In this document: one piece after another, positions 23,961-59,663 of the stretch
Position numbering within the stretch: the first letter of the stretch is position 1
Layout of the letters: each line of letters starts with the position of its first letter
Assembly (NCBI GenBank): GCA_964016885.1
Contig: OZ024742.1
Coordinates: 341,186,001 to 341,250,000, forward strand
Reading direction: 5' to 3'
Origin: Eledone cirrhosa
Taxonomy: Eukaryota
DNA length: 64,000 bases
Program-made: the position numbers and the translations under genes
Notes under the pieces: generated by a model
The model's database searches: none
What the model was told of the DNA's origin: nothing
The model's input: only the letters and a program-made list of their open reading frames with translations

Positions 23961-24012
<52 letters not shown>

Positions 24013-25354: not shown

Positions 25355-25427
<73 letters not shown>

Positions 25428-27484
25428 TCAAGGGTAATGATGTTACCAACTATAGACCTATCACATGTCTGTCCGTAATGTGGAAACTGTTGACAAGCAT
25501 TATGTCTGAGGAAATCTGCCATCACCTCCACACAAACAACTTGTTACCGGACGAACAGAAAGGATGCCGAAAGAAGTCACGTGGTACAAAGGACCAGTTA
25601 CTTATTGATAAGATGGTAATGAGGAATTGCAAGAGGAGACACACTGGTCTTGCCATGGGATGGATAGACTACAGAAAGGCATTTGACATGGTGCCTCATT
25701 CTTGGATCAGCAAAAGCCTGGAGATCTTTAAGGTGGCAGATAACATCAGACAGTTGTTGGGCAAAAGTATGAAGTCCTGGGAAACAGAGTTAACATCAGC
25801 TGGAGAATCCTTGGGAAACGTGAAGATCAAGAGAGGTATCTTCCAGGGAGATACTCTGTCCCCTCTGTTGTTTGTCCTTGCCCTGATTCCCCTGACCAGT
25901 GTACTGCGAAAAGTGAGAGCAGGATACAGGTTGGGAAAGGGAGGGCTTACCATCAATCACCTCCTCTTCACGGACGATCTTAAGCTCTTCGGGAAGAGTG
26001 AGAAGGAGTTGGATGTGCTTGTTGACACTGTCCGTATTCTCAGCAATGATATATGTATGCAATTTGGTATTAGTAAGTGTGGAGTCATTGTGATGAGGAG
26101 GGGTAAGTTGAGCAGAAGTAACGGAATCCAGGTACCAACAGGTGAGATGATAAAGGAAATTGACTCTGAGGAAGGATACAAGTATTTGGGCGTTCTGGAG
26201 GCTGATGACATCGAGAACAAAAAAATGAAGGAATTGATAAGAATTGAATACATTCGGAGAGTAAGGAGCGTATTAAAGTCACATCTGAACAGTAGGAATG
26301 CCATAAGTGCAGTAAATTCCCAAGCTGTGTCTATTATTAGGTACAGTGCGGGAATTATGAGATGGAATGTTGCTGAACAAAAAGAAATGGATAGGAAGAC
26401 TAGGAAGCTATTGACTATCTACAACATGTTCCACAAAAGGAATGATGTCGATAGACTCTACTTAAGGAGATCTGAGGGTGGAAGAGGTCTTATCAGCATA
26501 GAGGACTGTGTTCAGATGGAGAAAAACAACCTACACAAATACGTGACTGATAGTAAGGAGCCAATGCTCAGAACTATACTGAAGGGGGGGAAAATAGGCC
26601 AGGGGATGTCCAAGGAGGAAATAATATCAAGGAGAAAGAGCAACCTTCAGGAAAAATCCCTTCATAGTACCTTCTTTGAGAAAACTGAATTTAGAGATCC
26701 ACAGACATGGAACTAGTTGAAAAGAGGAGACCTTAAAAAGGCTACAGAAGGAATGTTAATGGCTGCGCAGGAGCAGGCCCTCAAAACGAAGTGGTTGAAA
26801 CACCATATTTACAAGGAGGAGGCTAGCCCACTGTGCAGGATCTGTGGAGAGAGAGAGAGGAGACTGTGGCTCACGTTGTATCCGAGTGTAAACACCTAAC
26901 CCAGACTCACTATAAGGGCTGGAGACATGATGTGATGGGCAGGGTGATCCACTGGCACCTATGCAAAGTAAACAATTTACCACATTCTGAGAAGTGGTAT
27001 GAGCATAAGCCAGAGGCGGTGATAGAAAACGATCAGGTGAAGGTGCTGTGGGATTTTAGGATACAGACGGACAAGAAACTGGAACACAATAGACCTGACC
27101 TGATGGTTATGGACAAATAAAAAAGATCGTGCCTGATTGTGGATGTGGCCTGCCCATTTAACACGAGAGTGCAAGAGAAGGAGAGGGAGAAAATTAACCG
27201 ATACAAGGACTTAAAGTGGGAGGTAAAAAGGATTTGGAACTGCCATGAAGTCAAAGTGATCCCGATTGTCATAGGCGCACTAGGGACTATCTCAAAAAGT
27301 TTCCAGGGATGGTTAAAGAAAATTGGCCCCTTCACGCTTTTTGGAACGCCTCAAAAGGCATGCTTGCTGGGAACAGCAAGAACCCTCCGATACGTCCTGA
27401 ATATCTGAGGTTGCAGGTAGTGGCTTGATATTCATTTCAACAAACTTTCCAGTTAACTAACATCAATGACTGAGACTCAAAGAG
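25428..27484 (+). mobile_element. R4/Dong-like RLE non-LTR retrotransposon, 5'-truncated, decayed
   Basis: [66 protein letters not shown]. (AAT)n on both sides. Confidence 0.93.
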
Positions 27485-27494
27485 TAATAACAAC

Positions 27495-27550
<56 letters not shown>

Positions 27551-27552
<2 letters not shown>

Positions 27553-30500
27553 TTTTCTTTATTAACCACAAGGGTTTACATAAAGTAGACATTAAGGACA
27601 GTACAGGACAATACAGGACGGCACAAATGGGCATTTCTGCGTGTAAAAAAAAACAGCGGATGAAATAAAATAACAAAGAAAAATTCCCCAATAGGGGGGA
27701 GACTTCCGAGGGACATTTGTGGAGAAGGCCCATTCATTCGGGCCATACTTGCTTCTCTCACCCATCTTTCAACAAAATGCTGGGAACAGAGCACTTCCCT
27801 CTCTACCCTGATTTTCCTTTTCAAATGAAATTTGAAAAAGTTAATCAGGGCATCACCGAAGAGGTAAGTGCTCGTCTTCAGCCCTTTCAAACGTGTCCAC
27901 CATACTATCTCTTTCGCCATGGCCACCAGACAGATAAAAACTGCCTGCCCTTCCCGGCTAAAGGAAGAGGGCGGGGCAATCCTCACGATGGACTCAGCTG
28001 ATAGCTGGATCCGTCCTACACGTGACAGCAGGTGTTCGACATAAACCCACAAGTCAGCAATGCTCGGACACTGGACGAGTGCGTGCAGGACGGTTTCGTC
28101 GCCCTGTGCGCATCTCGGACTGCCCGGCTGACGGCACGTCCATGCCTGTAAAGTTTATCCCGAACTGGCAAAGCACCCCGGTAGCACTGCCAGGCCAGGG
28201 ATTTCTGGAAGTTGTCCATAGGCCCCGGCCCGAAAGTCCTTCCGAAGAGATTGGCTAGTTGATTTTCGTCGACGCCTAGAGTTTCTCCAAGTACGTCGTC
28301 GCTCTTCCCCTCCACTAATCCTCTATAGAACGCCAAGGTGGAGTTTCCACCGATCACATTGCCCGATTGGTCGAGGGCTGTGAGCGCCTGAAGACATTCC
28401 AGTCTCCAAGCGCTCCCTCTCGGTCTTCGCTTGACCCAGGACTGCAGCTCCGTCAAGGAGACGAGCTGGGGAAAAACGCGTCTAGCAAACGGCGACCACA
28501 CCTGATCACCGTCGAGGAAGAGGTGGAGATGTCGTAGCCTGAGCGCGTGTCTGCGCATCATCAGCCACGGCATGCCCAGCCCTCCACGTAACGGGTGTTG
28601 ACAGCAGATGGACCGCCTGACCATCGGGGCGCGTCCCTTCCACAAGAAGCGAAAGAGCAAACGCTCCAGCGCAGTCAGGCGGGGCTTATGACAAGGTACG
28701 ACAGTCAGGCGGTAGTAGATGACGGACGCGATGTACGCGTTAGCCACCTCCGCTCGACCTTTCAGGGATAGCTTCCTCTCGGCCCATTTCTGGGTGAGAG
28801 AAGCCACCCTGCTCGTCACCTCGTCCCAGTTTTTGTCCGCCTGGAGGTCTGGACCGAACCAGACCCCTAGCAATTTAACCGGTCCGTCTGTCCAGCGCCC
28901 GACGACGCTGTTGGACGACATGGACCAGCCTCGCCAGGTGCCGAGCTGCAGGCCCACTGACTTTTCCTGGTCGATCATTGCTCCTGTCACCGCTTCGTAT
29001 TCTCTTAGTGTAGTGCCGCTCGCCTCGATGTGTTTGGCGTTCGACACCACTACGGTGACATCGTCGGCATATGCTGACACGGATCTTCCGCATCCTAGTT
29101 CGCGCGGGATCCCCCTCAACGTCTCCAGTTTGTGCAGTAATGGCTCGAGAGTCAATACGTACAATAGGGACGAGAGGGGACATCCTTGGCGGACCGAGCG
29201 CATGATGTTGAACGGTTCCGAAAGGTGACCGTTCACTCTCACTACAGAGCAGATGTTGCTGTGCATGGCAGTGATCCAGCCTCTGAAGACGGGCCAAAAG
29301 CCAGCCGCCCTCAGGACTGCCTCTAGGTAGCGATGGTCGACTCTATCGAAGGCTTTCGACTGATCTAAATTGATCAAAGACCCACCCGTGCCAGGTTCCC
29401 TAGCTACCCTCTCTACGATGTATCGCATGAGGTGGAGGTTGTCGTGGATGGATATGTCGGGAATGGCGCATGTCTGTGCCTCTCCCACCAGACCACCAAC
29501 GACAAGCGCCAACCTCTTTGCTAGCACCTTGGCCAAAATCTTGAACTCTGTGTTTAGCAGAGTTATGGGCCTAAAATTATCTATGTTATCCCCCTTGTTC
29601 GGATCCTTTCTCAGCAGCGCCACCGCTCCTCGGCTCACAGAGCTGGGAATTCTCCCGTTCTGTTGCCAGTTGCAGTAGACGTCCGCCAAGAGGCCTCCGA
29701 ACAAGTTTGGCATTTGTACGTAAAGTTCATAGGGCAGACCATCCAAACCAGGCGATTTACCCCTTGTGCAACTAGTCATTGCATCCCGTACTTCAGCGGT
29801 TGTTATCGGCTTTTCGCAACACTCCGCCTCAGTGGCCGAAAGCCGCGGCAGTCCGTCGAGGTAGACACTAAAGTCCATCCCTCGATCCGGCCCGCCACTG
29901 CCCCCGAACAGTTGAGCGAAGTGTCGCTGAAAAGCTTCACACATTTGCCCGGGATCGAGTAGCATGCGCCCGTCGTGGTCCACCAAAGACCGGATCGTGG
30001 CTTTGTTGCCACGACGCGCCTCCGCCACTCGGGCCCATTGAACGGCTTTCGTCCCCTCGTGTCTGAGAGCACGCACCCTAGCTCTGACAACGCAGCCTTC
30101 GTGCTTTGCATTGAAGAATTGGTCAAGGGCCAATTTCGCCGCAAGTACGTCGGTCGCGATGCCTATTTTTCTCTATTGCTAAAGTCTTACTAAACCAAAT
30201 GGACTCTATTCTAATTGCTCTTTTCAGAGCAAACCACCACTTGTTGTTGACGATGGCCCCCGTCAACGCCCGCTTAACTAGTTCGCTAATCCGGTCTCTG
30301 TAGGCCTTGCGCGCTGGTAAGGACGCGTTTAGCTTCCAGTAGCCGGGTCCTCGTCTATGAAGCCTATCTAAGTCAAGCACACAGATCACGAATTTGTGGT
30401 CCGTGTAGCTGACTATCTTGAATTGTGGACAGCCTATGCTAGACCTATCTATTTCCCTACAAAATACTCTATCTAGATATGATCTGGATGACCCTATGCG

Positions 30501-32735
30501 ATTTGTCCAAGTCCACATTGGTACATTCGGGAAATCCATTCGGTACCTGTCAGACAGTTCAAAACGTCTGAGCAGGTTGGTGAGACTCTTGCACCCTCCT
30601 TCCCTATCCACTAATCCCACACAATCCCAGCGTGCATCTAAGATCCCGTTCCAGTCGCCCACTAACACTAAAGAGCGGGACGTTCCAAGAAAGGTCTCCA
30701 GACGGCGGAAGAAATCAGGCCGCCCTGCTCCTGTCGGGGCATAGACGGCCACTAACCTGAAAGCTTGCCCGTCTCCGCTGGTCACGTCCAGCACCACCAA
30801 CTTACCTTCTGGGTCCAGGAAGATGGCCCGTATGGCAAGATCCAAACCTCTCCGAAAAAGCACAGCAACTCCTCCCCCCCGATCCCGGACGGCTGGGAGA
30901 TGCGTACACATCGTAGCCGCCGAAGATCGGTGCGAAAGCCTGTGCTTCGGAGATTCTGGTCTCGCTGATGGCCACTACATCTATGTTTAGTGACCTGAGG
31001 TCGTTGAGCAGGTGGCCCTGCTTCCATGACGACCCCAAGCCACGCGCATTTATGCTGCCTATTCTGAGTGAGGTCATGTTGAAAAGGAGTGGAAAAGATG
31101 GGAAAGACCACTTACCTTACTTCTCGTAAGGGAAGGATGGTTTTTCCATCCTTTTCACTGCTTGTGGCCTCCTCAGGAAGGATGTCCTTATAAATCCTCC
31201 TGGAGAGTGCTTGTCGGAAGTTTCCGATGTCTTTGGGGAATTTTTGTTTTAGTGTCATGTACGTTTTCTGTGTGATGCGAGTGATTTGTATGTGTGGAGG
31301 TGGTGTGAATTTTGGGGTTGTTGTGTAGTCTTTTTCTGTGATGCTGGTGTTGTGTTGGATGTAGTGTAATAATTGCTTGTTGTTCAAATTTAATGCTGTG
31401 TAGTGTGTATCGTTTTGGTTGTTTTCTTTTGTTTGCGTTTGTTGTGGGTTTGTTTCTGTTTCGCATTTTGGTGACTTTTGTGGTGTAGGTGATGGTGGTG
31501 TTGGAGTTAATGATGGTGATGGTGTTGGTGTTTGGGTTGATGGGGTTGGTGATGCTGGTGTGGATGGTGGCATATCTGTCCTAACTTTTTTGTTTCTTAG
31601 TTTATTTGTTTCCCTCTGTATTTTGTTTCTGGAGGGGGAAGGAAGAGAATTTTTTCTTTTTTGGTTTCTTTTTTTTTTTCCGGATATCGTTTCCCACTCC
31701 TCGTCGTCACAATCTGTCTCCAGTTGTGATAGGCCGGGGAGTGGAAAATCCTCCACAGGCGTTAGTTTTGGTTGTGGCGTGGTGGATGGTGTAGGCGCTG
31801 GTGCTAGTTCTGAAGCGTTGGGTGGTGGTGGTGTTGGTTTTGCTGGTGGTGGTGGTGGTGTTGGTTTTGCTACTGTTGCTGGGGTTGTTGCTGTTATAGT
31901 TGCTTCTGTTGTTGCTGCTACAGTTGTTGCTGCCATCTCTGCTACTGGTGGTGTTGATGGTTGTGTCACTGGGGTGGGTAGGAGAGGTGGCCTCAACCTT
32001 TTAGCCTGATGGCAGAAAGCCCTTAGGTGGGTTCCTTCACCACAAACGACACACCTAGGTCTTTTGCCCTTGACAATTACCGTGAGGTGGCTGCCGTCAG
32101 TGAGGTCTATTACCTCTGGGATCTCCTCAATGCTATTTTTGGTCCGCTTGGATCAGGAGCTCCATCCCAGATCCGGACCAGTTCTCCTGCTTTTCTTTTG
32201 CTATTGCTATTATTTTCGTGTTGGCTTCGATGCCGGCGAGGACAGCCGCTATTAGCCAGGGAATTTTGATGGCCGGTGGAACGTGGGTCACCCTGATCTT
32301 TACGAGTCTCTGGCCACAATAGCTTGGGACGAGTGTGAAGTCGTCACTTCTTAATGGGGCCATGGAGTGTTCTCTAGCCTCCTCTGGTGTTTCAAAGAAC
32401 ACGTCCATGGTTCCATACTTTTGCCCACGTCTGATGTGGGTTTTTCTTGCCCACACATGTCCCAAAGCTATTTGGATTTGGGACTCGGATGCCCGTTCCA
32501 CTCGGCGCGATTTTACATTTATTGTTCTATACGACACGGTGCATAGGCGCCGATGCTCCATTTTATTAGGTGGGGGGTGAGGCTGACCCTGTACCCATCT
32601 TTCTTTACCATTTGTTTGGCATTTTCTAAATCCTCCTGAGTTACCGTAAATGCTTCGAACTGTTTTGCTACTCTGGCGAAACTGAGGGGGGGGGGGGGTT
32701 ATAATGTCATTGTTGTTGTTGTTGCTATCGTTAAT
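27551..32735 (-). mobile_element. L1/Tx1-clade LINE copy C, 5'-truncated in ORF1
   Basis: ORF2 31077-27730 is broken by frameshifts and a deletion near 30165, and is nearly identical to copy D. ORF1 remnants lie at 32700-31112. Confidence 0.94.
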
Positions 32736-32740
32736 ATTAA

Positions 32741-33627
32741 TTAAATACCCAGAACGAGCTAACAATCCTGATGTTGACAAAACTTTAACCCATCAGTGGT
32801 TGGCATCCTCTGGACTGAAATCGGAGACTGAAGGACTGATTATATCAGCACAAGATCAGTGTCTGCCAACAGAAAATTACCAAACCAACATAATAAAAAA
32901 TGGATGCAGCCCATTATGCCGTGTATGTAAAAAACAACCAGAGACCATTGACCATATAATTTCAATGTGCAGTCCTATAGCTCCAACCGAATACCTAAAC
33001 AGGCATGACAAAGCTGCACAATACATACATTGGATAATGTGTAAGCATTTTGGCCTGCCCCATCAAAAGAATTGGTGGGAGCATCAACCACCTCCCATAC
33101 TTGAAAAAGATCACATCTCAATCTTGTGGAACTTTAGCATCCAAACAGACCGACAAATAGATGCAAATAGACCTGATATAATACTGAAGGACTTTAAAAA
33201 GAGGGTATGCCTGCTAATTGATATGTCCGTTCCAATAGACAAGAATGTATCTATAAAAACATTTGAAAAATTGAGCAAGTATAAGGACCTGGAGATAGAA
33301 ATTGGAAAAATGTGGAAATTGAGAACTAAAACAATACCAGTGGTTGTAGGCGCTCTAGGAATGATACCTAAGGGGTCTAATGATTACTTATCGCAAATCC
33401 CAGGAAACCCGCGTATAGGAGAAGTACAAAAGATAGTACTAATGGGAACTGCCCATATACTAAGGAAGATTCTGTCAATATAAGTACATTACAAGTCTAA
33501 ACACCTAAAGATGCATGTGTGAGTATGTATGTTTTTTCTTGAACATGGCGGACCTTGTTGTCTCTTGAGGTCACTGGTTGTGACTTGGTGATAACTCGTA
33601 TGAACATAAAGCAAGATAAATGCAGCT

Positions 33628-33629
<2 letters not shown>
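32741..33629 (+). mobile_element. R4/Dong-like RLE element 3' fragment (second family)
   Basis: LKSETEGLIISAQDQCL, CRVC...ETIDHIISMC, RHD, ANRPDI..D..K..EKLSKYKDL. The ORF ends at 33483, followed by an (AAT)n tail. Confidence 0.92.
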
Positions 33630-33682
<53 letters not shown>

Positions 33683-33942
33683 TTTCTTTATTAACCACAA
33701 GGGTTTACATAAAGTAGACATTAAGGACAGTGCAGGACAATGCAGGACGGTACAAATAGGCATTTCTGCGTGTAAAAAAACAAAAACAGAGGATGTAACA
33801 AAAATAACAATGAAAATAACAATGAAAAATTCCCCAATAGGGGGGAGACTTCGGAGGGACATTTGTGGAGAAAGCCCAGTAAAAAGCCACAATGACCCTG
33901 ACCACCAAGGCAAGTGCCCTCTCCCAGTTTTCCACCTTTAGT

Positions 33943-36900
33943 TTACAGATATATACTCAGAGTCGGCCCATTCACTCGGGCCATTCTTGCTTCTCTCACC
34001 CATCTTTCAACAAAATGCTGGGAAGAGAGCACTTCCCTCTCTACTCTGATTTTCCTTTTCAAATGAAATTTGAAAAAGTCAATCAGAGCATCACCGAAGA
34101 GGTAAGTGCTCGTCTTCAGCCCTTTCAAACGTGTCCACCATACTATCTCTTTCGCCATGGCCACCAGACAGATAAAAACTGCCTGCCCTTCCCGGCTAAA
34201 GGAGGAGGGCGGGGCAATCCTCACGATAGACTCAGATGATAGCTGGATCCGTCCTAAACGCGACAGCAGGTGTTCGACATAAACCCACAAGTCAGCAATT
34301 TTCGGACACTGGACGAGTGCGTGCAGGACGGTTTCGTCGCCCTGCGCGCATCTCGGACATGCCCGGCTGACGGCACCTCCATGCCTGTAGAGTTTATCCC
34401 GAACTGGCAAGGCTCCTCGGTAGCACTGCCAGGCCAGAGATTTCTGGAAGTTGTCCATAGGCCCCGGCCCGAAAGTTCTTCCGAAGAGATTGGCTAGTTG
34501 ATTTTCGTCGACGCCTAGAGTTTCCCCAAGTACGTCGTCGCGCTTCCCCTCCACTAATCCTCTATAGAACGCCGAGGTGGAGTTTCCACCGATCACATTG
34601 CCCGATTGGTCGAGGGCTGTGAGCGCCTGAAGACATTCCAGTCTCCAGGCGCTCCCTCTCGGTCTTCGCTTGACCCAGGACTGCAGCTCCGTCAAGGAAA
34701 CGAGCTGGGGAAAAACGCGTCTAGCAAACGGCGACCACACCTGATCACCGTCGAGGAAGAGGTGGAGATGTCGTAGCCTGAGCGCGTGCCTGCGCATCAT
34801 CAGCCACGGCATGCCCAGCCCTCCACGTAGCGGGTGTTGACAACAGATGGACCGCCTGACCATCGGAGCACGTCCCTTCCACAAAAAGCGAAAGAGCAAA
34901 CGCTCCAGCGCAGTCAGGCGAGGCTTAGGACAAGGTACGACGGTTAGGCGGTAGCAGATGACAGACGCGATGTACGCGTTAGCCACCTCCGCTCGACCTT
35001 TCAGGGATAGCTTCCTCTCCGCCCATTTCTGGGTGAGAGAAGCCACCCTGCTCGTCACCTCGTCCCAGTTTTTGTCCGTCTGGAGGTCCGGACCGAACCA
35101 GACCCCTAGCAATTTAACCGGTCCGTCCGTCCAGCGTCCGACGACGCTGTTGGACGGCATGGACCTGCCTCTCCAGGTGCCGAGCTGCAGGCCCACTGAC
35201 TTTTCCTGGTTGATCATTGCTCCTGTCACCGCTTCGTATTCTCTTAGTGTAGTGCCGATCGCCTCGATGTGTTTGGCGTTCGACACCACTACGGTGACAT
35301 CGTCCGCATATGCTGATACGGATCTTCCGCATCCTAGTTCGCGCGGGACCCCCCTCAATGTCTCCAGTTTGTGCAGTAATGGCTCGAGAGTCAATACGTA
35401 CAAGAGGGACGAGAGGGGACATCCTTGGCGGACCGAGCGCATGATGTTGAACGGTTCCGACAGGTGACCGTTCACTCTCACCACAGAGCAGATGTCGCTG
35501 TGCATGGCAGCGATCCAGCCTCTGAAGACGGGCCCAAAGCCAGCCGCCCTCAGGACTGCCGCTAGGTAACGATGGTCGACCCTATCGAAAGCTTTCGACT
35601 GATCTAAATTGATCAAGGACCCACCCGTGCCAGGTTCCCTAGCTACCCTCTCTACGATGTATCGCATGAGGTGGAGGTTGTGGTGGATGGATCTGTCGGG
35701 AATGGCGCATGTCTGCGCCTCTCCCACCAGACCACCAACGACAAGCGCCAACCTCTTTGCTAGCACCTTGGCCAAAATCTTAAACTCTGTGTTTAGCAGA
35801 GTTATGGGCCGGAAATTGTCTATGTTATCCCCCTTGTTCGGATCCTTTCTCAGCAGTGCCACCGCTCCTCGGCTCACAGAACTCGGAATTCTCCCGTTCT
35901 GTTGCCAGTTGCAGTAGACGTCCGCCAAGAGGCCTCCGAACAAGTCTGGCATCTGTACGTAAAGTTCATAGGGCAGACCATCCAAACCAGGCGATTTACC
36001 CCTTGTGCAGCCAGTCATTGCCTCCCTTACTTCAGCGGCTGTTATCGGCTTTTCGCAACACTTCGCCTCAGTGGCCGAGAGCCGCGGCAGTCCGTCGAGG
36101 TAGACACTAAAGTCCATCCCTCTACCCGGCCCCCCGCTGCCCCCGAACAGCTGAGCGAAGTGTCGCTGAAAAGCTTCACACATTTGCCCGGGATCGAGTA
36201 GCATGCGCCCGTCGTGGTCCACCAAAGACCGGATCGTGGCTTTGTTGCCACGACGCGCCTCCGCCACTCGGGCCCATTGAACGGCTTTCGTCCCCTCGTG
36301 TCTGAGAGCACGCACCCTAGCTCTGACAACGCAGCCTTCGTGCTTTGCATTGAAGAATTGGTCAAGGGCCAATTTCGCCGCAAGCACGTCGGTCGCAATG
36401 CCTTTGCTAAGCGCCTCGTCTAATTTTCTAACTAGTTCTCCCTCTGCTCTATTTTTCTCTATTGCTAAAGCCTTACTAAACCTAATCGATTCTATTCTAA
36501 TCGCTCTTTTCAGAGCAAACCACCACTTGTTGTTGACGATGGCCCCCGTCAACGCCCGCTTAACTAGTTCGCTAATCCGGTCTCTGTAGGCCTTGCGCGC
36601 TGGTAAGGACGCGTTTAGCTTCCAGTAGCCGGGTCCTCGTCTATGAAGCCTATCTAAGTCAAGCACACAGATCACGAATTTGTGGTCCGTGTAGCTGACT
36701 ATCTTGAATTGTGGACAGCCTATGCTAGACCTATCTATTTCCCTACAAAATACTCTATCTAGATATGATCTGGATGACCCTATACGGTTTGTCCAAGTCC
36801 ACATTGGCACATTCGGGAAATCCAATCGGTACCTGTCAGACAGTTCAAAACGCCTGAGCAGGTTGGTGAGGCTCTTGCACCCTCCACCCCTATCCGCTAA

Positions 36901-37362
36901 TCCCACACAGTCCCAGCGTGCATCTAAGATCCCGTTCCAGTCGCCCACTAACACTAAAGAGCGGGACGTTCCAAGAAAGGTCTCCAGACGCCGGAAGAAA
37001 TCAGGCCGCCCTGCTCCTGTCGGGGCATAGACGGCCACTAGCCTGAAAGCTTGCCCGTCTCCGCTGGTCACGTCCAGCACCACCAGCTTACCCTCTGGGT
37101 CCAGGAAGATGGCCCGTATGGCGAGATCCAAACCTCTCCGAAAAAGCACAGCAACTCCTCCACCCGATCCAGGACGGCTGGGAGATGCGTACACATCGTA
37201 GCCGCCGAAGATCGGTACGAAGGCCCGTGCTTCGGAGATTCTGGTCTCGCTGATGGCCACTACATCTATGTTTAGTGACCTGAGGTCGTTGAGCAGGTGA
37301 CCCTGCTTCCATGACGACCCCAAGCCACGCGCATTTATGCTGCCTATTCTGAGTGAGGTCAT
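33943..37362 (-). CDS. Intact Tx1-like ORF2: APE endonuclease + reverse transcriptase + Zn finger (1139 aa)
   Basis: GSINARGL, ISET, VGDWN, YLDRVF, TDHK; DQSKAFDRVDH, SVRQGCPLS, AYADD, LLGV; CPRC..DETVLHALVQC. Confidence 0.97.
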   Translation of the reverse strand: MTSLRIGSINARGLGSSWKQGHLLNDLRSLNIDVVAISETRISEARAFVPIFGGYDVYASPSRPGSGGGVAVLFRRGLDLAIRAIFLDPEGKLVVLDVTSGDGQAFRLVAVYAPTGAGRPDFFRRLETFLGTSRSLVLVGDWNGILDARWDCVGLADRGGGCKSLTNLLRRFELSDRYRLDFPNVPMWTWTNRIGSSRSYLDRVFCREIDRSSIGCPQFKIVSYTDHKFVICVLDLDRLHRRGPGYWKLNASLPARKAYRDRISELVKRALTGAIVNNKWWFALKRAIRIESIRFSKALAIEKNRAEGELVRKLDEALSKGIATDVLAAKLALDQFFNAKHEGCVVRARVRALRHEGTKAVQWARVAEARRGNKATIRSLVDHDGRMLLDPGQMCEAFQRHFAQLFGGSGGPGRGMDFSVYLDGLPRLSATEAKCCEKPITAAEVREAMTGCTRGKSPGLDGLPYELYVQMPDLFGGLLADVYCNWQQNGRIPSSVSRGAVALLRKDPNKGDNIDNFRPITLLNTEFKILAKVLAKRLALVVGGLVGEAQTCAIPDRSIHHNLHLMRYIVERVAREPGTGGSLINLDQSKAFDRVDHRYLAAVLRAAGFGPVFRGWIAAMHSDICSVVRVNGHLSEPFNIMRSVRQGCPLSSLLYVLTLEPLLHKLETLRGVPRELGCGRSVSAYADDVTVVVSNAKHIEAIGTTLREYEAVTGAMINQEKSVGLQLGTWRGRSMPSNSVVGRWTDGPVKLLGVWFGPDLQTDKNWDEVTSRVASLTQKWAERKLSLKGRAEVANAYIASVICYRLTVVPCPKPRLTALERLLFRFLWKGRAPMVRRSICCQHPLRGGLGMPWLMMRRHALRLRHLHLFLDGDQVWSPFARRVFPQLVSLTELQSWVKRRPRGSAWRLECLQALTALDQSGNVIGGNSTSAFYRGLVEGKRDDVLGETLGVDENQLANLFGRTFGPGPMDNFQKSLAWQCYRGALPVRDKLYRHGGAVSRACPRCAQGDETVLHALVQCPKIADLWVYVEHLLSRLGRIQLSSESIVRIAPPSSFSREGQAVFICLVAMAKEIVWWTRLKGLKTSTYLFGDALIDFFKFHLKRKIRVEREVLSSQHFVERWVREARMARVNGPTLSIYL

Positions 37363-37397
37363 GTTTAAAATAGAGTGGAAAAGATGGGAAAGACCAC

Positions 37398-39472
37398 TTA
37401 CCGTACTTTTGGTAGAGGAGGGATGGTTTTTACATCCCTTTTCACTTGATCGTCTGGTGAAGGGACCGTTGAATCGTCCCTTCGGCTGGTCGTCGGCTCT
37501 TCTAAGAGAATGTCTGAGTATACTCTTCGATTGATGGTTCCTCCTAGGTCCCTGAAATCACCAACTGCGTTGGGGAATTTCGTTTTAATGTTTGTGTATT
37601 GTTTCTGTGCTATTTTTAGCAGTCTTATGTTAGTTGGCGTTTTGATTGGTGCTGGTATTATGTAGTCCTTTTGTGAAATGTCTGTGTGTTCAATTATGTA
37701 AGTCATTAGTTTCTTGTTGTGTGTATTTATTGCCGTGCATTTGTTTTTCTGGGGGTGGGGTGTGGTTCTGCTATTTTCTTGTCGTTGTTGCTGGGTGTGT
37801 GTGTTTTGTTGTTGTGTTTGCGATGTTGGTGCTTGTGGTGGTGGTGTTGAAGGTGTTGTTGGCGGTGGGGTTGTCGCCGGTGGTGATGGTGGTGCTAGTG
37901 TGGGTGGTGATGGTGTTGGTGTTGTTGCTGCTGTGGGTCTCTTTGCAGTAGACTTTACCCTTTTCTCATTTCTTTCCTCCCTTTTCAAAGGCGACGATGC
38001 GCTGCTTCTGCGTTTGTGCCTTCTTGCGACCTTTTGCCATCCCTCTCCCACCTCACACTCCATGTCTGATTCTGTGAGGTCGGGGAGGGGTACCAGCTCC
38101 ACTCTTTCACTTGTTGTTGGTGATGTTTGCACTGGAGTCTCTGTTGCAGCTGCATTTGGTATTGCTGTTGTTGTTGTTAATATTTCCACTGCTGCTGCTG
38201 TTTTTGATTTCCGTGGCGTGGGTATGGGTGCCACGGACCTATCGTTCCTGGTTGCCGCTTGTCCTGTTGCTGGTAGCCGTGGAGCCGGATTCGGAAGGAG
38301 GGGGGTTTTCTCCTTTCTCAGGGTCTTCTCGTTGCAGAAGGCCCTGAGGTGAGTCTTCGATCCACAGCGAAAGCATTTCGGGCGTTTGCCCTCAACACTT
38401 ATGGGCAGTTGAGTGCCGTTATCGAAGTCTATCACATCCGGGATAGCTTCGATGCACTCCTGGTTGGTTTGGATTAGCATCTCAATGGAGGAGCCGACCC
38501 AATCTTCTCTTACTTTTTTCTGTACTTGCAGTACAGTTGTTTTGTCCTCGATTCCGATTAGGACAGACGCGGCCAGCCAAGAAGGGGTCATTCCGGGGGG
38601 GGGGGGGCGTGGGACAGTTTGACCCTCACAATTTTTTGCCCGCAGTAGGAGGGCACCAACACCATTTCCTCGCTCCTTAGGGTCACTACTGATTGGGCCT
38701 TTGCCTCCTGGGGTGTGGCAAAAAGTACGTCTACGGTGGCATATTTTTTGCCTCGGGTGATGTGCGTTTTCCGCTGCCACACAGACCCCAAGGCTTTTTG
38801 TATTTGGGCCTCTGTGGCTCTTTCCACCCTACGGGATTTTGTACTTACTGTACGGTACGTGACCGTACAGTGCTCTTGGGTTTTGAAAAATTTTTCCGCT
38901 GCCTTGCAGATTGCTCGGTGTCCGTTCTTTGTCACCATCTTCTTCGCTTCCTCTAATTCCTCATTTGTTATGAGGATTGTTTCCAAGTTTTTCGCAATAC
39001 CTGCAAATGAGATTGGTTTTTCTCTGCTGTTGTTGTTGTCGTCAGAGCTGCTGGTACTTTTGTTGTTGCTGCAGGTACTACGACTACTGCCTCCGCCGCT
39101 GTTGCTGCTAATGCTGTTGTTGTTTATGCTGCTGGTGATGCTGTTGCGGCTGCTACTGTTGTTTTCATTGTCACTGTTGCAGTTGTTATTACGGCTGCTA
39201 CTGCTATTATTCCTGACGTCAGACGAATGAACTGGGTTTTCGTATTTCCCGCACACCTGTTTCGTCGCTGTCGTCGTCGTCGTGGAGAAACCTTGCACGC
39301 TTTGCACGAGACTTTTCTTTTCTTTCGTCACTTGCGAAAGAGAAGGGAGGGAGAGAGACACATTTAAAGAAGGGAGGGAGAGAGACAATCTTCTCTCTGC
39401 TGTAGTGATGATTGAGGAAGAAGAAGACGGAATGAGTGGGAGTGACGTATGAAATTTCTTTTTCGTAGCCAT
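37398..39472 (-). CDS. Tx1-like ORF1 (~690 aa), single frameshift in a G13 run at 38595-38607
   Basis: Two overlapping ORFs join at the homopolymer. Contains the CFRCGSKTHLRAFC knuckle and the aaacaacATGGCT start shared with copies A and B. Confidence 0.88.
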
Positions 39473-44337: not shown

Positions 44338-44494
44338 TTGAAATATATATAATGAAATAAATATGGTTTTATAAATATAGTTTCCATTTATTAATATCGT
44401 ATATATGTATATATATATTTTTAAAAATGCAACACGTGGTTCGAATCATTCACAGATTTGCATTTGCTCTGTAAACACAGATACTTATTTTCTT

Positions 44495-44587
44495 CTCCTT
44501 TGGTGAACATCCAAGAATTTAACTGCTGTGATTTACGGATTAATAGGTGAAATATATTTCTTACTTAAAGAAATATATACAAAGGAG
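44495..44587 (+). ncRNA. Type I hammerhead motif with G3-C8 core (GUGAACA)
   Basis: ctcctttg GTGAACA tcc...gga ttaa...ttaa a GAAA tata TA caaaggag. Stem I is 8 bp. Same family as 57774 and 58323. Confidence 0.8.
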
Positions 44588-44849
44588 ATTAATCATTTAA
44601 AAGGTATCTATATTTGAAGTTCTAGTCAAACTTTAATTAGTTACCTACCTAGCTAAGTGTGCTTACATTCTTTACACATTATTCCCTGTGATTGTTTCAT
44701 GTATTTATTTTATATATATATATATCAATCTATTTCTAGCTGATATATATATATATATATATATATACAGGTGGAGGGTGGGGGTATCCCGGGTTCAATC
44801 TGGGGTAACCACAGTAAGGTACTCAATACATAGCAGAGTATAAATGTTT

Positions 44850-48161: not shown

Positions 48162-48360
48162 TATAACGAAGGAGTTGTGGTAAGGAACCAGATGGACCAT
48201 AATGCACCAGTATACTCAATACTTAGGGTAGTAGAGTGGGTAATAGGAAAATGTATGACCCCGACGGCAGAGCTCAAGCCGTTTTGACGGTTATTTCTGG
48301 ACTCAGAAATATCCGTCGAAACGGCTTGAGCTCTGCCGTCGGGGTCATACATTTTCCTAT
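48162..48360. mobile_element. 3'-end fragment of the 54107-55785 PLE family with a ~120-bp fold-back (48243-48360)
   Basis: Reverse complement of 55640-55785. The palindrome centre at ~48302 lies in HHR stem II. Confidence 0.9.
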
Positions 48361-49911: not shown

Positions 49912-51910
49912 AGGATTAGCCAAGATGCAGTGATGGTTAATTACTACACTGGATATGGTTGACGTACGGTAAGAGTTTACTCTACGAGTTATGGAAGAAT
50001 TGTTCAAGAAACTTAGTTCCTGATCCTTCAGTATTCCGGAGTGTATATAAATAATGAATAATAACAGGTAGACATCATAAAAAGGTAGTTTATTCCGTGT
50101 GCTTACAAGTGTTTCCACGGTGGTACTGCAGCCTAGTTCCGCTACGTGCAAATTCACAAGTATTTGCAGAACTCGAATATCCAATGCTGTGACCACTGTT
50201 TCCTCAGAGCAGAATGGTAAATATACAATGTAAAAACCCTTAAGTGGGGTTGTTGGGGAAGATAGAGTGGAACAGGAAGAGAGAAAAGTAGGGAAGATGG
50301 AGAGAGAAGGAAGGATATGCAGGGGTTGGGGAAGTAGGAGAGAGTGGCTTGTAGATATCTTAATCAAAATGTTATGGTAGGGGTTTTATTAGTTACTTTT
50401 GGAGAGATGCGTAGATAGTTGAGGTCGGAATTATTTATTGCCCCAGAGGTCAAGTTCATAGATGTTGAGAGGGAGGTAGGTCAAAGGTGAGAGAGAGAGA
50501 GTGTAATGGATGTAGAGAGAGATATATAGGTAGAGAGGGGACAGATAAAGTATATGTGGTGAGTGAACTTTTGGTTTTGTAGTAGTAATCTAGGAATTGT
50601 ACTGAGTTACCATGTATAGTGATAAGCAGTGTATTGTCTTGTAGTGTGGGGGAGAAGAGAAGGTTGTTAGCTAGAAAGTGGTGTTGTAGTTACGGGTTCG
50701 AATGTTAAGTTATTTTATAGTGAGAGAATTTAGCTTTTAGTTTGTGGTTGCAGTATAATGATCGTTCAATTCTATCGTTAAGTAGTTTGTTTTGGGATTT
50801 TAGTATGTAAAATAGCTCAAGGTTACATAACCTGCAGTACTTCAAACCACTCCGATATGCATTTGCGCTGGAAAGTATATCCCATTTTAAGGTGAACTGT
50901 TGGTTGTGTTCACGGAGTTGCCAGGTCTTGTTGGCGAGCGTGGTCACAAAACGGTGATTCTGATGTTTGATTGAGAATCGATGACGGTACCAGCGAGATT
51001 TAAACGATGTGGTGGTAGATCCGATATAATACCATTTCTGGTCGTCCGATTCAACCGTGCATTGGTAAACAATGTTGGACTTTAGGCATTCATTCTGCAA
51101 TGGACATCTTTCAGGTAGATGGCAGTTACATGCTTTGTTGTGGGTAGCGGGTATACCATGGATAGGTTGTGATAGCGGTACAGGTGGGTTGTGCAATACT
51201 CGTCTCCCATTTAGTGGTTGGGAGGCAGATATTGCGTTCTGCCCATCTGTTACTAAAATGTTTTGTTTTGTAGAGTTGTTTAATTGCCTTAAGTTAAGTT
51301 TTTTTATGTATGCTTCAAGGTTTCGTGCCGTGGAGTATGATAGTCTAATAGTTTTGGAGTTCAGAATTTTGCTGTACTTATGGGAACTAGGGAAGTGTTT
51401 ATTGATTAATTTAAAGAATGAAAGAGATAGTTTTGTACTAATCGAGGCATTAAAAATAGGATTATACCAGATATACTTTCTACAACGTGATTTATTTGGT
51501 GGTGATCTTCTATTATTAGTATGTCTGGTAGTATAGTGTGTGTGTGCTTGTGTTTTAGTCACCCGGTTACGTATACCTTGATTACGTGTAGAGCTATGTG
51601 TGTTGTGGAAATTACTATCGATGTATTCTATTGTATCCCGGTGGTCAGCATTCCTTAATGCATTATTGTAGTATTCAGCATGTTCGCTAAAAATATCAGA
51701 GTTAGACGATAGGCGAGAGATTCTAAGAGAAATACTCCGGGGAACTGATTTGATCATGGAGAGTGGGTGGTTAGAGTTAAAGTCAATATACGTAAGGTTC
51801 TCATTTACCTTGTGGAAGGGTCGTATCTGTCCGGTATTTAAATTGTGGAAACACTTGTAAGCACACGGAATAAACTACCTTTTTATGATGTCTACCTGTT
51901 ATTATTCATT
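49906..51910 (-). mobile_element. PLE 3' portion (ORF 51845-50705) with long 3' UTR and short inverted pLTR (51845-51910)
   Basis: YIDFNSNHP, RISRLSS, IWYNP, KHFP..H.Y.KI.N..TIRLSYS, CNC....CPLQNECLKSNIVYQC, YIGST. Bases 51845-51910 mirror 50053-50118. Confidence 0.92.
50100..50211 (-). ncRNA. Type I hammerhead ribozyme with ~85-nt domain II
   Basis: tgct CTGAGGA a-acagtggt...accaccgt-g GAAA cacttg TA agca. Confidence 0.82.
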
Positions 51911-53324: not shown

Positions 53325-53453
53325 GTATTTATATATATATGTATATATATTTTTTATATATATATATCCGCTCTGTCTATATATTTATATGCATACCTAT
53401 ACATATATATATAAGTGTGTATATATAAATGTATATATATAGGAAAAAGTATG

Positions 53454-53549
53454 ACCCCAACGGCAGAGCTCAAGCCGTTTCGACGGCTATTTCTGGACTA
53501 AATTAGAATTTTTAGCCTGGTGAATAAATACCCAAACTTGTCAAGAGGT
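53454..53549 (-). ncRNA. Type I hammerhead with U3-A8 core (UUGACAA), GUU site
   Basis: acctc TTGACAA g...c GAAA cggc-ttgagctct-gccg TT ggggt. Confidence 0.75.
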
Positions 53550-54904
53550 ACTTCCTTATATGGGAAGATTGTAGTTGTCAAGATGATTGGTTAAAATTTG
53601 TTGTAAACACAAAAAAGTCTATCATGGCATTTGGTGGGAGGTAGGGGTGGCTGAAGTTGCCTGTAGAACAATAGGGGAGTGAGTGGAGCGGTCAAGCGAT
53701 GAAAGTGATATGTATACAGCAGATTCTAAGCATAGTGTATGAAGTGGAGGAGTGAGGTTATAGAATAGATAAATCGAATGAGAGTAGGAGACAATAAAAG
53801 ATAATAGAAAGAAATACAAAAATATATAAAATTAGATTGTGAGAAATAAATAAAAAAAAATCACAATGCTATCTTACAATTACAGGTTAATAAGTTGAGA
53901 ATAGAAAAAACTTGTAGAAATTGAGTAGTACCAAAACTGATACAAAATTAAAGGGGTTTAACACGTCTGCTATAAGTAGCTAATTCTATCTTAAAATTAC
54001 AGGGGTGGAGGAACTGATGCTATAGAGACCCGATGGGCTGCATCGGGGTAGGCGAAAGGGGGAAAGCAGACGAGGAAGAAAATAGGGGCTTGAAGGAAGT
54101 GATAGGATGAGACAGGCCCTCAAGCGGAGTGACTTCCGTGGGGAGATATCCTTTTATCTAGCTTCCCTTAGCGGAACCAGCAGGCGACACCGCCGCTCAC
54201 GCAGCGTAACGTGGTTCAATCCTCTCCATAATGCCGAGGTGGGAACACCTATCGGGAAAATCTTCTTTAGACTCCTCGAAAAACACTTCCCATTACAACA
54301 CCGCTACCACAACATAATCAACAAAAACACCATCAAACTCTCCTACAGCACCACACCTAACTTCGCACAAAACATCGTCTCCTCAAACAACAAAAAACTC
54401 ACCCCTATGGAAGAAGTAACCTAGACATCAGTGGGGAGCCGTAACTGCCCTGTTAGATCTACGTGCCCCCCCCCCTCCAACAACAAATGCCGAGAACGTA
54501 ATGTGATCTACCAGTGCAACGTGAGGACGGACACCTCCAACAAAGCTTATATAGGATTAACCGCGTGTGACTTCAAGACCCGGCTCTACCAACACCGACA
54601 CACTTTCCGAAACCCGCTCCGGCCACATGCCATTACTCTTTCGGGCCACATCTGGGACCTCCAAAATAATAATATAACCAATCTCACTTGGAGCTTACTG
54701 TCCACAGCTAACTCTTACACGGGAGGACGCCGTCCGTGTAACTTATGCTCGGAGGAAACATTACAAATGGTGTTTTCGAAGGACCAACTCCTAAACAAGA
54801 AAGACGAACTGGTAACCGCATGCAAACACAGATTGCGTAGGACTTACCTCGCCCTCAAACCCCATAACGTCCCGGGTGGGTAGACAAGGGCTGATACCCC
54901 CCGC

Positions 54905-54936
<32 letters not shown>

Positions 54937-55591
54937 TGCCGAATAAGTTAGGGGAAACTCCAGCTTTCATAGGTAGATGTATCTATTTTCTTTTCTTTTC
55001 CTCATTGTCTTCTTCTTCCCCCTGTCTCATCCTATCACTTCCTTCCACCCCCTATTTTCTTCCTCGTCTGTTTTTCCCCTTTCGCCTACCCCAATGCAGC
55101 CCATCGGGCCTCTGTAGCATCAGTTGCCCCACCCCTGTAATTTTAAGATAGAATTAGCCGAATACGTTTTACTAACTACTTATAGCAGACGTGTTAAACC
55201 CCTTTAATTTTGTATCAGTTTTGGTACTACTCAATTTCTACAAGTTTTTTCTATTCTCAACTTATTAACCTGTAATTGTAAGATAGCATTGTGAATTTTT
55301 TTATTAATTTCTCACTATCTAATTTTATATATGTTTTTATTTCTTTCTATTATCTTTTATTGTCTCCTACTCTCATTCGATTTACCTATTCTATAACCTC
55401 CCTCCTCCACTTCATACACTATCCTTAGAATCTGCTGTATACATATCACTTTCAACGCTTGACCGTCCACTCACTCCCTTATTGTTCTACAGGCAACTTC
55501 AGCCACCCCAATGCCATGATAGACTTTTTTAAGTTTACAACAAATTTTAACCAATCCTCTTGACAACTACAATCTTCCCATATAAGGAAGT

Positions 55592-55688
55592 ACCCCCTTG
55601 ACAAGTTCGGCTATTTATTCACCAGGCTAAACATTCTAATTTAGTCCAGAAATAGCCGTCGAAACGGCTTGAGCTCTGCCGTCGGGGT
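55592..55688 (+). ncRNA. Type I hammerhead with U3-A8 core (UUGACAA), GUC site
   Basis: cccc TTGACAA g-tt-cggctattt...aaatagccg-t-c GAAA cggc-ttgagctct-gccg TC gggg. Confidence 0.82.
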
Positions 55689-56055
55689 CATACTTTTTCC
55701 TATTTCCCACTCTACTACCCTAAGTATTGAGTACTCTGGTGCGTTATGGCCCATCTGGTTCCTTACCACGATTCCTTTGTTATATATATATATATTATAA
55801 AATAACAGGGGGTTGGACTGGTGTAAATCCTTGAAAGGTTTATTATACTATGATCATTTCAATGACCGGGTTCAGTATGAATCCGGTGATATCATGAGGT
55901 ATTCGAAATATAACAAAGGAATATAACAGATAAAATCCATGGGGATGAAAATCAGAGACAAGAGGACGACTAACTATTTAGCAGCCTCTACCTCAGTCGG
56001 TCACCCTCCAGTGTTGATTATTAAGTCTACTTATGACCATCTGGTCATATACATT

Positions 56056-57610: not shown

Positions 57611-58408
57611 TCAACTAGAAATTGATTGACATATATATATATATTTAAAATAAACATATGAAACAATCACAGGGGATAATTTGTAAAGTGTGTAATCACA
57701 CATAGCTAGGTACGTAACTAATTAAAGTTTAACTAGAGCTTCAAATATTACCTTTTAAAAAATGATTAATCTTCCTTGTGTATATTTCATTAAAGAAATA
57801 TATTTCAACATTAATCCTTAAAGTCACAGTAGTCAAGTCCCTGATCTTCAGCAAGGGAGAGGATTTAACTATTTGTGTTTACACATCAAATGCAAATCTG
57901 CGAGTGACCCATCGCACGTGTTGCAATTCTAAAACTAATAACAACATGCTAGCGTCATCCCAGTGGCGTGAATAGGGTGATCGACTGCTATAAATAGCAG
58001 CCGAGTCCTTTCAACTGAGTTAGTTCTACAATTAAGGAGCCGTGTATATATCCAAAATTAATTAAATTAAATTAGATTACGGGAGTCATGTCCGAGACAT
58101 GCGCCACACCCACTGTAGAATAAGCTCAAAGATTCCAATGAATAGATCCGAGCATTTTATATCAACTAGAAATTGATTGACATATATATATATTTAAAAT
58201 AAACACATGAAACAATCATAGGGGATAATTTGTAAAGTATGTAATTACACACAGCTAGGTAGGTAACTAATTAAAGTTTAACTAGAGCTTCAATTATTAC
58301 CTTTTAAAAAATTATTAATCTTCCTTGTATATATTTCATTAAAGAAATATATTTCACCATTAATCCGTAAAGTCACAGTAGTAAAGTCCTGGATCTTCAG
58401 CAAGGGAT
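57611..58408 (-). repeat. Tandem 1.45-mer of a 550-bp unit, each copy with an HHR (57774-57856; 58323-58405)
   Basis: tcaactagaaattgattgac occurs at 57612 and 58162. HHR: ccttg CTGAAGA tcc...gga ttaa...ttaat GAAA tata TA caagg (the first copy has CA instead of TA). Confidence 0.85.
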
Positions 58409-58716
58409 ATTTGGATATATAATTTTGGATATATATATATATATATAAAGGGAAAAAATGAAACAAAATTTAATTTCCCACTCTTAGTACGGCTGTTAAC
58501 TAAATATAAGTATGTACACATACATACATAAATGTATACAGACGTACAGTAGTATGTATATATATATACATACATGCACACACATATATATATATATGTA
58601 CGTATGGATTCACCGAACATTTATTATAATGCTCGGTGTGTTTGTAAACAAACATCCCGTATTAAGCCGTAGTGTCTAGCAAACATCGTTGCTCGTTTTT
58701 CAACACTGACAAAGGA

Positions 58717-58759
58717 ACGCTGTACTAGTTTCAAGCTTATTAGCTATCGTCAGCAACGT
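58717..58759 (-). ncRNA. Type I hammerhead ribozyme, canonical core
   Basis: acgttg CTGACGA t-agc-taataa-gct-t GAAA ctag TA cagcgt. Confidence 0.9.
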
Positions 58760-59443
58760 ATACGTTCCTGCCAGATTGTTGAACGTATATACTTACCTTA
58801 TGCATATTAACGGCTGAGTAGCCCAATTTGCAGATCGAGTGGGTTAATCGGCCGGGTGCACCGAAAACGATAAACGGAAAAAATGAAACGAAATTTCATT
58901 TCCCACTCTTAGTACGGCTGTTACTTAAATATAAGTATGTACACGTACATACATATATTTATACAGACGTACAGTAGTATGTATATATATATACATACAT
59001 GCACACATATATATATGTACGTATGGATTCACCGAACATTTATTATAATGCTCGGTGTGTTTGTAAACAAACATCCCGTATTAAGCCGTAGTCTCTAGGA
59101 ACCATCGTTGCTCGTTTGTTCAACACTGACAAAGGAACGAGCATTATAATAAATGTTAGGTGAATCCATACGTACATATATATATGGGTGCATGTCTATA
59201 TATATATATATATATATATACATACTACTGTACGTCTGTATAAATATATGTATGTACGTGTACATACTTATATTTAAGTAACAGCCGTACTAAGTGTGGG
59301 AAATAAAATTTCATTTCATTTTTTTCCGTTTATCGTTTTCGGTGCACCCGGCCGATTAACCCACTCGATATGCAAATTGGGCTACTCAGCCGTTAATATG
59401 CATAAGGTAAGTATATACGTTCAACAATCTGGCAGGAACGTAT

Positions 59444-59486
59444 ACGTTGCTGACGATAGCTAATAAGCTTGAAACTAGTACAGCGT
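59444..59486 (+). ncRNA. Type I hammerhead ribozyme, identical second copy
   Basis: acgttg CTGACGA t-agc-taataa-gct-t GAAA ctag TA cagcgt. Confidence 0.9.
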
Positions 59487-59663
59487 TCCTTTGTCAGTGT
59501 TGAACAAACGAGCAACGTTGTTTGCTAGAGCATTATAATAAATGTTCGGGCATTATAATAAATGTTCGGTGAATCCATACGTAGATGTATATATGTGTGC
59601 ATGTATGTATATATATACATACTACTGTACGTCTGTATACATATATGTATGTACGTGTACATA

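What the first reader, a model, noticed from the sequence alone, without database searches (positions are those of the whole stretch)
53441..55702. U3-A8 hammerhead (UUGACAA) in both inverted pLTRs of one PLE
Seen: TTGACAA lies between stem I and a G-C-closed long stem II in both arms. GAAA is followed by a 4-bp stem III with a palindromic gagctc loop, a GUC or GUU site, and stem I'. With the G3-C8 case, three of the four possible 3-8 pairs occur in this window. A second cctcTTGACAA lies 38 nt upstream. Established: U3-A8 is a viable compensatory pair.
Basis: partly seen in the sequence, partly recalled or inferred. Interest (0 to 1): 0.7.

Follow-up and report, generated by a model that had tools for sequence, protein, structure and literature searches.

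The report
Penelope-element hammerhead, known U3-A8 core
A broken Penelope-like jumping gene carries, in its tail and in an inverted copy of that tail, a small self-cutting-RNA motif whose core pair is U-A instead of C-G; this swap is already published for such elements, so it is a new example of a known thing.

Summary
The motif is real. Both arms read UUGACAA, G10.1-C11.1, a 56-nt stem II, GAAA, a 5-bp stem III with a GAGCUC loop, GUC (55683) or GUU (53459), and stem I'; 0 of 40 shuffles gave a comparably strong hit. It lies in the 3' UTR of a 5'-truncated, RT-less GIY-YIG Penelope-like element with Hydra-clade motifs, inserted in (TA)n. The arms are two copies of one UTR, not independent evidence; the left is damaged in stem II. 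Sequencing runs show a high-copy family in which N7 varies (35-42%) while no A8-to-G change reaches 4% in three of four runs, so U3-A8 looks family-wide. Natural U3-A8 is published (Perreault 2011; Cervera 2014, about 1,300 hits in Schistosoma), as is the inverted two-hammerhead layout; this scan noted U3-A8 hammerheads in other genomes before. The G3-C8 side claim rests on one imperfect candidate. Cleavage is untested. The one oddity: depth rises 5-46-fold at 55643-55650, so most family copies begin inside stem II and lack the UUGACAA box, like the mini-palindrome at 48166-48360.

The parts
53439..54116 (-). Inverted, 5'-truncated copy of the 3' UTR (left arm), flanked by (TA)n
   Evidence: blastn to right arm 55021-55703, 91.4% over 697 columns; flank
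53454..53549 (-). Left hammerhead motif: core UUGACAA 53544-53538, GAAA 53481-53478, GUU site U17=53459; stem II damaged at 53534 and 53531
54117..54883 (+). ORF remnant: thumb/linker and GIY-YIG endonuclease of Hydra-clade type; no RT domain; in-frame stop at 54422-54424
   Evidence: translation; 33-43% identity to P0001-P0005, E to 7e-37; motifs against Craig 2021; 5' boundary approximate
54884..55703 (+). 3' UTR / pseudo-LTR region (right arm is 55021-55703); first family 3' end at 55703
   Evidence: loose ends into (TA)n behind 55703 in X1, X5, X13
55554..55566 (+). Upstream duplicate of stem I 5' strand plus core box (cctcTTGACAA); no stem II closure, not a usable core
55594..55687 (+). 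Right hammerhead motif: U3=55598, A8=55603, stem II 55605-55660, GAAA 55661-55664, stem III 55664-55682, C17=55683; stem I extends with bulges to about 55585/55702
55643..55650 (+). Family-wide 5' break point inside stem II: depth step and fold-back joints
   Evidence: tables 2, 5, 7; ratios
55704..55780 (+). 77-nt tail present on one end only, followed by (TA)n; second family 3' end
   Evidence: (loose ends behind 55769)
48166..48360 (.). Mini-palindromic insertion of the same family in (TA)n: two half-hammerheads joined at positions equivalent to 55643 and 55647; both lack the UUGACAA box

Best explanation
A dead, 5'-truncated insertion of an endonuclease-bearing Penelope-like element, most likely Hydra clade, with the usual inverted partial copy at its 5' side and a tail at one end, sitting in a (TA)n microsatellite. 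Its 3' UTR holds the family's type I hammerhead, in which the core Watson-Crick pair is U3-A8. SHOWN: sequence, layout, clade motifs, family-wide variation pattern. INFERRED: in the active parent the sense transcript folded the three-way junction (right-arm copy: hammerhead fold within 1.1 kcal/mol of the minimum in a 136-nt context) and cleaved 3' of C17 (55683), as a monomer through its 5-bp stem III or as a dimer through the GAGCUC palindrome, probably slowly or with protein help as for other animal PLE hammerheads. INFERRED: cleavage was not needed for insertion, since genomic copies run 20 or 97 nt past the site and no pile of 5' ends at 55684 is listed. The left copy faces outward, is damaged and is probably inert.
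For: Descriptor hits and null. Right arm z -2.84 with stems I, II, III in the minimum-energy fold. Position downstream of a GIY-YIG ORF in the sense direction. Hydra-clade motifs: no cysteine pair inside the GIY-YIG core, CxxC and CxH flanking the conserved E and N, CxCx5C linker in relatives, DKT and RWR in P0002, (TA)n target. Loop III change 55677 T>A (30-74%) lengthens the palindrome to 8 nt. Dimer cofold 13.9 kcal/mol below two monomers. Published precedent.
Against: No cleavage assay. In longer contexts (241, 381 nt) the hammerhead fold costs 5.1-5.7 kcal/mol of ensemble energy and stem I pairing falls to <=0.01. G10.1-C11.1 is a lone pair with predicted probability 0.06 or less. The enrichment of listed variable sites in unpaired positions is weak (4 of 6, p about 0.11), 52 rows of the variant table were hidden, and T>C at U3 cannot be excluded from the tallies. 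No compensatory change in a stem was seen. Rfam found nothing in the window at gathering score. Clade assignment is by motif, without a tree and without the RT.
Confidence: 0.85

Rival explanations
1. The motif descends from a hammerhead but no longer cleaves; U3-A8, the lone closing pair and the long stem II reflect a vestigial or purely structural element (protein-binding or priming structure) carried along by the family.
For: PAc hammerhead mutants do not affect insertion in vitro and no RNA reads ended at its site (Frangieh 2024); animal PLE hammerheads cleave poorly; most copies here lack the 5' core box; poor predicted folding in long contexts.
Against: All core positions fit and 3 and 8 changed together to keep a pair; N7 is the position that varies; the palindromic loop is kept or improved in variants.
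Confidence: 0.12
2. Chance hammerhead-like match in a retroelement UTR.
For: Loose descriptor hits arise 0.7 times per shuffled 64 kb; the two arms are not independent; no Rfam match.
Against: 0 of 40 shuffles reach this strength; the position near the 3' end just before the tail is where Hydra-clade hammerheads lie; no C3-G8 hammerhead was found elsewhere in this UTR.
Confidence: 0.03

Closest known systems
U3-A8 hammerheads of Schistosoma mansoni Cercyon PLEs (Cervera and De la Pena 2014, PMC4209133)
   Same: Type I hammerhead in the PLE terminal repeat with U3-A8; G10.1-C11.1; palindromic stem III region; opposite-strand second copy in truncated elements.
   Different: Those are minimal motifs without stem III and with a short stem II and an extra base after A9; this one has a 5-bp stem III with 9-nt loop, a 56-nt stem II and no extra base.
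Hydra-clade PLEs and their hammerheads (Craig et al. 2021, PMC8557442)
   Same: Endonuclease motifs, (TA)n target, hammerhead near the 3' end with a real short stem III; Penelope-13_HM has an inverted 5'-truncated copy with a hammerhead on each strand.
   Different: 26 of 26 Hydra-clade rows in File S2 have C3-G8, stem II up to about 25 nt and loop III of 1-3 nt; their descriptor would have missed U3-A8. The one cephalopod family listed has a different hammerhead, and a 14-letter motif of this one was not found in that supplement (line breaks could hide it).
Natural U3-A8 core variants (Perreault et al. 2011, PMC3088659)
   Same: C3-G8 covaries to U3-A8 in several natural hammerheads; stated there to be active in vitro from earlier work.
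   Different: Not tied to this family or architecture in the passages read.
Selaginella PLE-X1 hammerheads (Craig 2021 File S2)
   Same: Long stem II of about 50 nt in a PLE hammerhead.
   Different: C3-G8 core, endonuclease-less plant elements.
PAc (Poseidon, Anolis) tail and protein-assisted hammerhead (Frangieh et al. 2024, PMC11167929)
   Same: Two 3' ends with a tail between them downstream of the hammerhead; uncleaved RNA as template.
   Different: Tail is 77 nt here against 30-40 bp quoted there; different clade; C3-G8.

Membership tests
Type I hammerhead ribozyme | Core U4 G5 A6 N7, A9, G12 A13 A14, A15.1-U16.1, H17 | tested here: met
Type I hammerhead ribozyme | Watson-Crick pair between positions 3 and 8 (C-G in consensus) | tested here: met
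   U3-A8; a published natural variant
Type I hammerhead ribozyme | Stems I, II, III paired next to the core | tested here: met
   Right arm stem I 4 bp, G10.1-C11.1 then 9 bp, stem III 5 bp; left arm stem II weakened
Type I hammerhead ribozyme | Compensatory changes in stems across copies | tested here: inconclusive
   Per-position table only, 52 rows hidden, no phased copies; 4 of 6 variable sites unpaired, p about 0.11
Type I hammerhead ribozyme | Match to an Rfam hammerhead model at gathering score | tested here: not met
   0 matches in the window, also none for the C3-G8 motifs at 3844, 43517, 49536, so the test is insensitive here
Type I hammerhead ribozyme | Self-cleavage 3' of H17 | not testable with these tools
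   needs an assay
Minimal PLE hammerhead (min-HHR, Cervera 2014) | Stem III absent or 1-2 bp; extra base between A9 and G10.1; stem II 4-8 bp | tested here: not met
   5-bp stem III, no extra base, 56-nt stem II; it works like these but is not minimal
EN+ Penelope-like element | C-terminal GIY-YIG endonuclease | tested here: met
   VIY..YIG with conserved R, H, E, N in alignment A1; homologue P0004 weakly matches PF01541; the remnant itself has no Pfam hit
EN+ Penelope-like element | PLE-type RT in the same ORF | tested here: inconclusive
   Lost by 5' truncation; the longer homologue P0002 carries RT motifs
EN+ Penelope-like element | Inverted 5'-truncated copy, one-sided tail, hammerhead in terminal repeat | tested here: met
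Hydra clade | No CCHH motif; CxxC and CxH flanking conserved E and N | tested here: met
Hydra clade | CxCx5C linker | tested here: inconclusive
   Present in P0001-P0003 and window 50708-51874; degenerate in this copy, second C shifted
Hydra clade | RWK and DKT motifs; placement in RT tree | not tested
   Region missing here; RWR and DKT seen only in the 40%-identical P0002; no tree built
Hydra clade | (TA)n insertion | tested here: met
   both window insertions and read loose ends

The most novel reading that the evidence does not exclude
[quoted passage not shown] The fixed start marks a defined 5' end of the template RNA, such as a transcription start inside the ribozyme, so that priming at the tail gives short run-off cDNAs; transcripts of these many half copies could be cut in trans by the 5' half supplied by rare long copies, a natural two-piece hammerhead. 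The two halves cofold into the junction fold with about -11 kcal/mol binding, which is expected for two halves of one motif and is no evidence that it happens. A defined 5' end alone I put at about 0.3; trans cleavage in cells at 0.05.
Probability: 0.05. Interest if true: 0.65.

Novelty: new member of a known kind. Interest (0 to 1): 0.22.

Why it matters
Modest. It adds a Hydra-clade-like family to the lineages whose PLE hammerhead uses U3-A8, which C3-G8-only descriptors miss, and offers a construct with a real stem III for testing whether U3-A8 PLE motifs cleave as monomers. The sharp family-wide start inside stem II, if confirmed on an assembly, would bear on the open question of where PLE templates begin and why PLEs keep a ribozyme that insertion does not seem to need.

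Tried and rejected
Rfam scan at gathering score: 0 matches in 64 kb. No genome is held for this window, so no phased family alignment or covariance model could be built. Metagenome scans by protein and by a 22-base pattern found nothing. Run search: no RNA holder listed, which says nothing on expression; 4 of 15 listed runs were laid (X1, X5, X8, X13), the other 11 were not. Pfam gave no hit for the remnant. The upstream box at 55560 as an alternative core: rejected, C faces C at 10.1/11.1 and no scan accepted it. Register with C3 plus an inserted U: not needed, since it would leave position 8 as A opposite C. A second ribozyme cutting at 55643 to explain the break: checked by eye only, no fitting core found. 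G3-C8 search: three scans found no complete motif; the scan without a stem II requirement listed 4 loci (3291, 44503, 7500, 423), of which only 44503 has more than 4 bp of stem I. Lunse 2017 (PMC5785218) and Przybilski and Hammann 2007 (PMC1986816) are not held, so kinetic data on U3-A8 and any U3-A8 PLE dimers there were not seen. Earlier notes by place and by sequence were empty. An entry in my notes counting a Saccoglossus row as U3-A8 was wrong (it is U3.G8) and was corrected.

Full report
Observation. The right arm on the plus strand reads stem I (cccc, 55594-55597), UUGACAA (55598-55604), a 56-nt stem II region closed by G55605-C55660, GAAA (55661-55664), four G-C pairs around a 9-nt loop holding GAGCUC, U55682, C55683 and gggg. 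The left arm on the minus strand has the same parts with a GUU site at 53459. A descriptor open to all four Watson-Crick 3-8 pairs gave 3 hits in the window: these two and a C3-G8 motif at 49536. On 40 block-wise dinucleotide shuffles it gave 0.7 hits per 64 kb, 0.25 of them U3-A8, and none with stem III of 4 bp or more and stem II at -6 kcal/mol or lower; those strength cut-offs were set after seeing the real motif. Rfam found nothing at gathering score in the window, including the ordinary C3-G8 motifs.

The two arms are not independent. 53439-54116 is an inverted copy of 55021-55703 (91.4% over 697 columns; 27 mismatches in 664 aligned bases). Within the ribozyme region they differ at six positions and one gap. 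Two left-arm changes (53534, 53531) fall in stem II. For the right arm in a 136-nt context the hammerhead-constrained fold is -32.2 against a minimum of -33.3 kcal/mol (ensemble cost 2.3); for the left arm the cost is 6.2 and a competing hairpin that buries GAAA has probability 0.89. Against my reading: in 241- and 381-nt contexts the right arm also loses stem I (cost 5.1-5.7), and the G10.1-C11.1 pair has predicted probability 0.06 or less throughout.

The element. Between the arms lies a reading frame with one stop (54422-54424) that ends at 54883. Among 422 candidates of 393-2000 residues, 5 proteins matched, E to 7e-37, 33-43% identity. The alignment shows a GIY-YIG core without the internal cysteine pair, CxxC and CxH around the conserved E and N, and a CxCx5C linker in relatives that is degenerate here; the 759-residue P0002 carries DKT and RWR. 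These are the Hydra-clade marks listed by Craig et al. 2021 (PMC8557442 section 11), as is insertion in (TA)n, seen at both ends. The RT is missing, so the clade rests on motifs and on relatives, not on a tree. The layout (inverted 5'-truncated copy, tail on one side) is the described PLE arrangement. The host is not established here.

The family. Four of 15 listed runs, from four studies and three organism labels, were laid on 55440-55775 at 80% likeness; X1 may be the window's own sample, X13 is reduced-representation DNA. N7 (55602) is A in 42% of depth in X1 and 35% of reads in X13. Of 92 variant rows 40 were shown; none of those lies at 55598 or 55603. One row shows A9>T in 106 of 558 X13 reads, from about 5 start points, and 0.2% in X1. 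No shown row substitutes a stem I base; one C of the 5' run is missing in about 7% in X1. 55677 T>A (30, 66, 74, 53% in X1, X5, X8, X13) extends the loop palindrome to 8 nt, which fits dimer pairing; the right-arm dimer cofolds 13.9 kcal/mol below two monomers. Four of six shown variable sites in 55594-55687 are in predicted free positions, which is not significant (p about 0.11).

An oddity. Depth at 55677 over depth at 55602 is 46, 22, 4.7 and 24 in the four runs, with the step at 55643-55650; fold-back joints cluster at 55642-55649 with varied partners, and loose ends there in X1, X5 and X8 read as the inverted strand. The window holds such a copy: 48166-48360, two half-hammerheads joined at the equivalents of 55643 and 55647 in (TA)n. 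So most copies seem to lack the UUGACAA box. Caveats: the tool warns that summed depth is not copy number, X13 has a pile of read ends at 55638, and diverged subfamilies could drop out upstream. No pile of 5' ends at the predicted cleavage point 55684 is among the rows shown (one joint, one contig; 476 loose-end rows hidden). Explanations, all inferred: an RT stop at the distal hairpin (55625-55646), a transcription start inside stem II with run-off of 5'-proximal cDNA, or one short non-autonomous lineage. One listing search showed no paper on this; that is not a thorough test.

Mechanism. Shown: a complete type I hammerhead pattern with positions 3 and 8 changed together, in the usual place. 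Inferred from published relatives: cleavage after C17, slow or protein-assisted; in the Anolis element the hammerhead cleaved only with protein and its mutants did not affect insertion (PMC11167929 section 3). Copies here end 20 or 97 nt past the site (55703, 55780), consistent with an uncleaved template and two priming sites. This copy lacks RT and is dead as an autonomous element.

Comparison. Perreault 2011 reports natural U3-A8 and says it was already active in vitro (PMC3088659, passages). Cervera and De la Pena 2014 report U3-A8 in Cercyon PLEs with about 1,300 hits in S. mansoni (PMC4209133, parts 1-2 of 4 of the text); 2 of 56 rows of their Fig. S3 are U3-A8, and Fig. S4A shows an opposite-strand second hammerhead on a truncated element (supplement parts 1-2 of 3). 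In Craig's File S2, 26 of 26 Hydra rows are C3-G8, one family has hammerheads on both strands through an inverted copy, and two Selaginella rows have stem II of about 50 nt (supplement parts 1-2 of 59 and two searches). Also seen: passages of PMC6765202, PMC3884650, PMC13282606 and part 1 of 5 of bioRxiv 10.64898/2026.07.22.740005; none changed the reading. Two relevant papers were not held. Literature searches. Earlier scan notes list seven findings in other genomes of U3-A8 or similar cores beside PLEs; I checked the papers, not their DNA.

The G3-C8 remark. C3-G8 cores lie at 3844, 43517 and 49536. The only G3-C8 candidate with a long stem I is 44503-44579: z -3.41, 9-bp stem I, long stem III, but U faces U at 10.1/11.1 and eight unpaired bases precede GAAA in the predicted fold. 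Three pairs in one window is therefore possible, not shown.

Verdict. Real motif, correct reading, published variant: new member of a known kind, interest 0.22. The long stem II, true stem III, probable Hydra-clade host and the fixed break inside stem II are the only additions.

Noticed in passing
window 48166-48360: Mini-palindromic insertion of the same family made of two 3' half-hammerheads broken at the equivalents of 55643 and 55647; this form appears to dominate the family in four runs.
   Followed up: partly
window 44494-44589 (+): Hammerhead-like three-stem fold with G3-C8 box (GUGAACA at 44503), 9-bp stem I and long stem III, z -3.41, but no 10.1-11.1 pair; no PLE ORF recognised next to it.
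   Followed up: partly
window 50705-51874 (-) and 50207-50144 (-): A second Hydra-type endonuclease remnant (35% identical to this one) with a possible decayed C3-G8 hammerhead in its 3' UTR: 7-bp stem I, about 45-nt stem II region, imperfect 3' core; its minimum-energy fold is not a hammerhead.
   Followed up: partly
window 143-3571, 3844 (+), 43517 (+): Back-to-back inverted PLE ORFs (99% identical, weak RVT_1 match, C-terminal GIY-YIG-like motif) of another clade, with a C3-G8 minimal hammerhead at 3844 and a related one at 43517; both have poor stem I.
   Followed up: partly
window 49536-49502 (-): C3-G8 minimal hammerhead next to (TA)n, belonging to another short 3' UTR remnant.
   Followed up: no
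window 23886-24503 (-): GIY-YIG fragment (PF01541, E 2.5e-4) with a CxxxxCxxC linker, a third PLE type in the window.
   Followed up: no
window 55689-55695, runs X1 and X13: Loose-end consensus points to a subfamily with a 2-nt longer segment after stem I' that keeps the GAGCUC loop and the GUC-gggg site.
   Followed up: no
window 55711-55735: By eye, the start of the tail resembles the 3' end of Hydra-2_Amil in Craig 2021 File S7, a possible conserved priming signal; not aligned or scored.
   Followed up: no
window 57633-59621: Another complex of direct and inverted repeats (150-226 nt units, 84-99% alike) flanked by (TA)n; not identified.
   Followed up: no
window 25310-38828: Several APE-type non-LTR ORFs (RVT_1, Exo_endo_phos, zf-RVT), the longest 1204 aa at 33943-37557 (-).
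   Followed up: no
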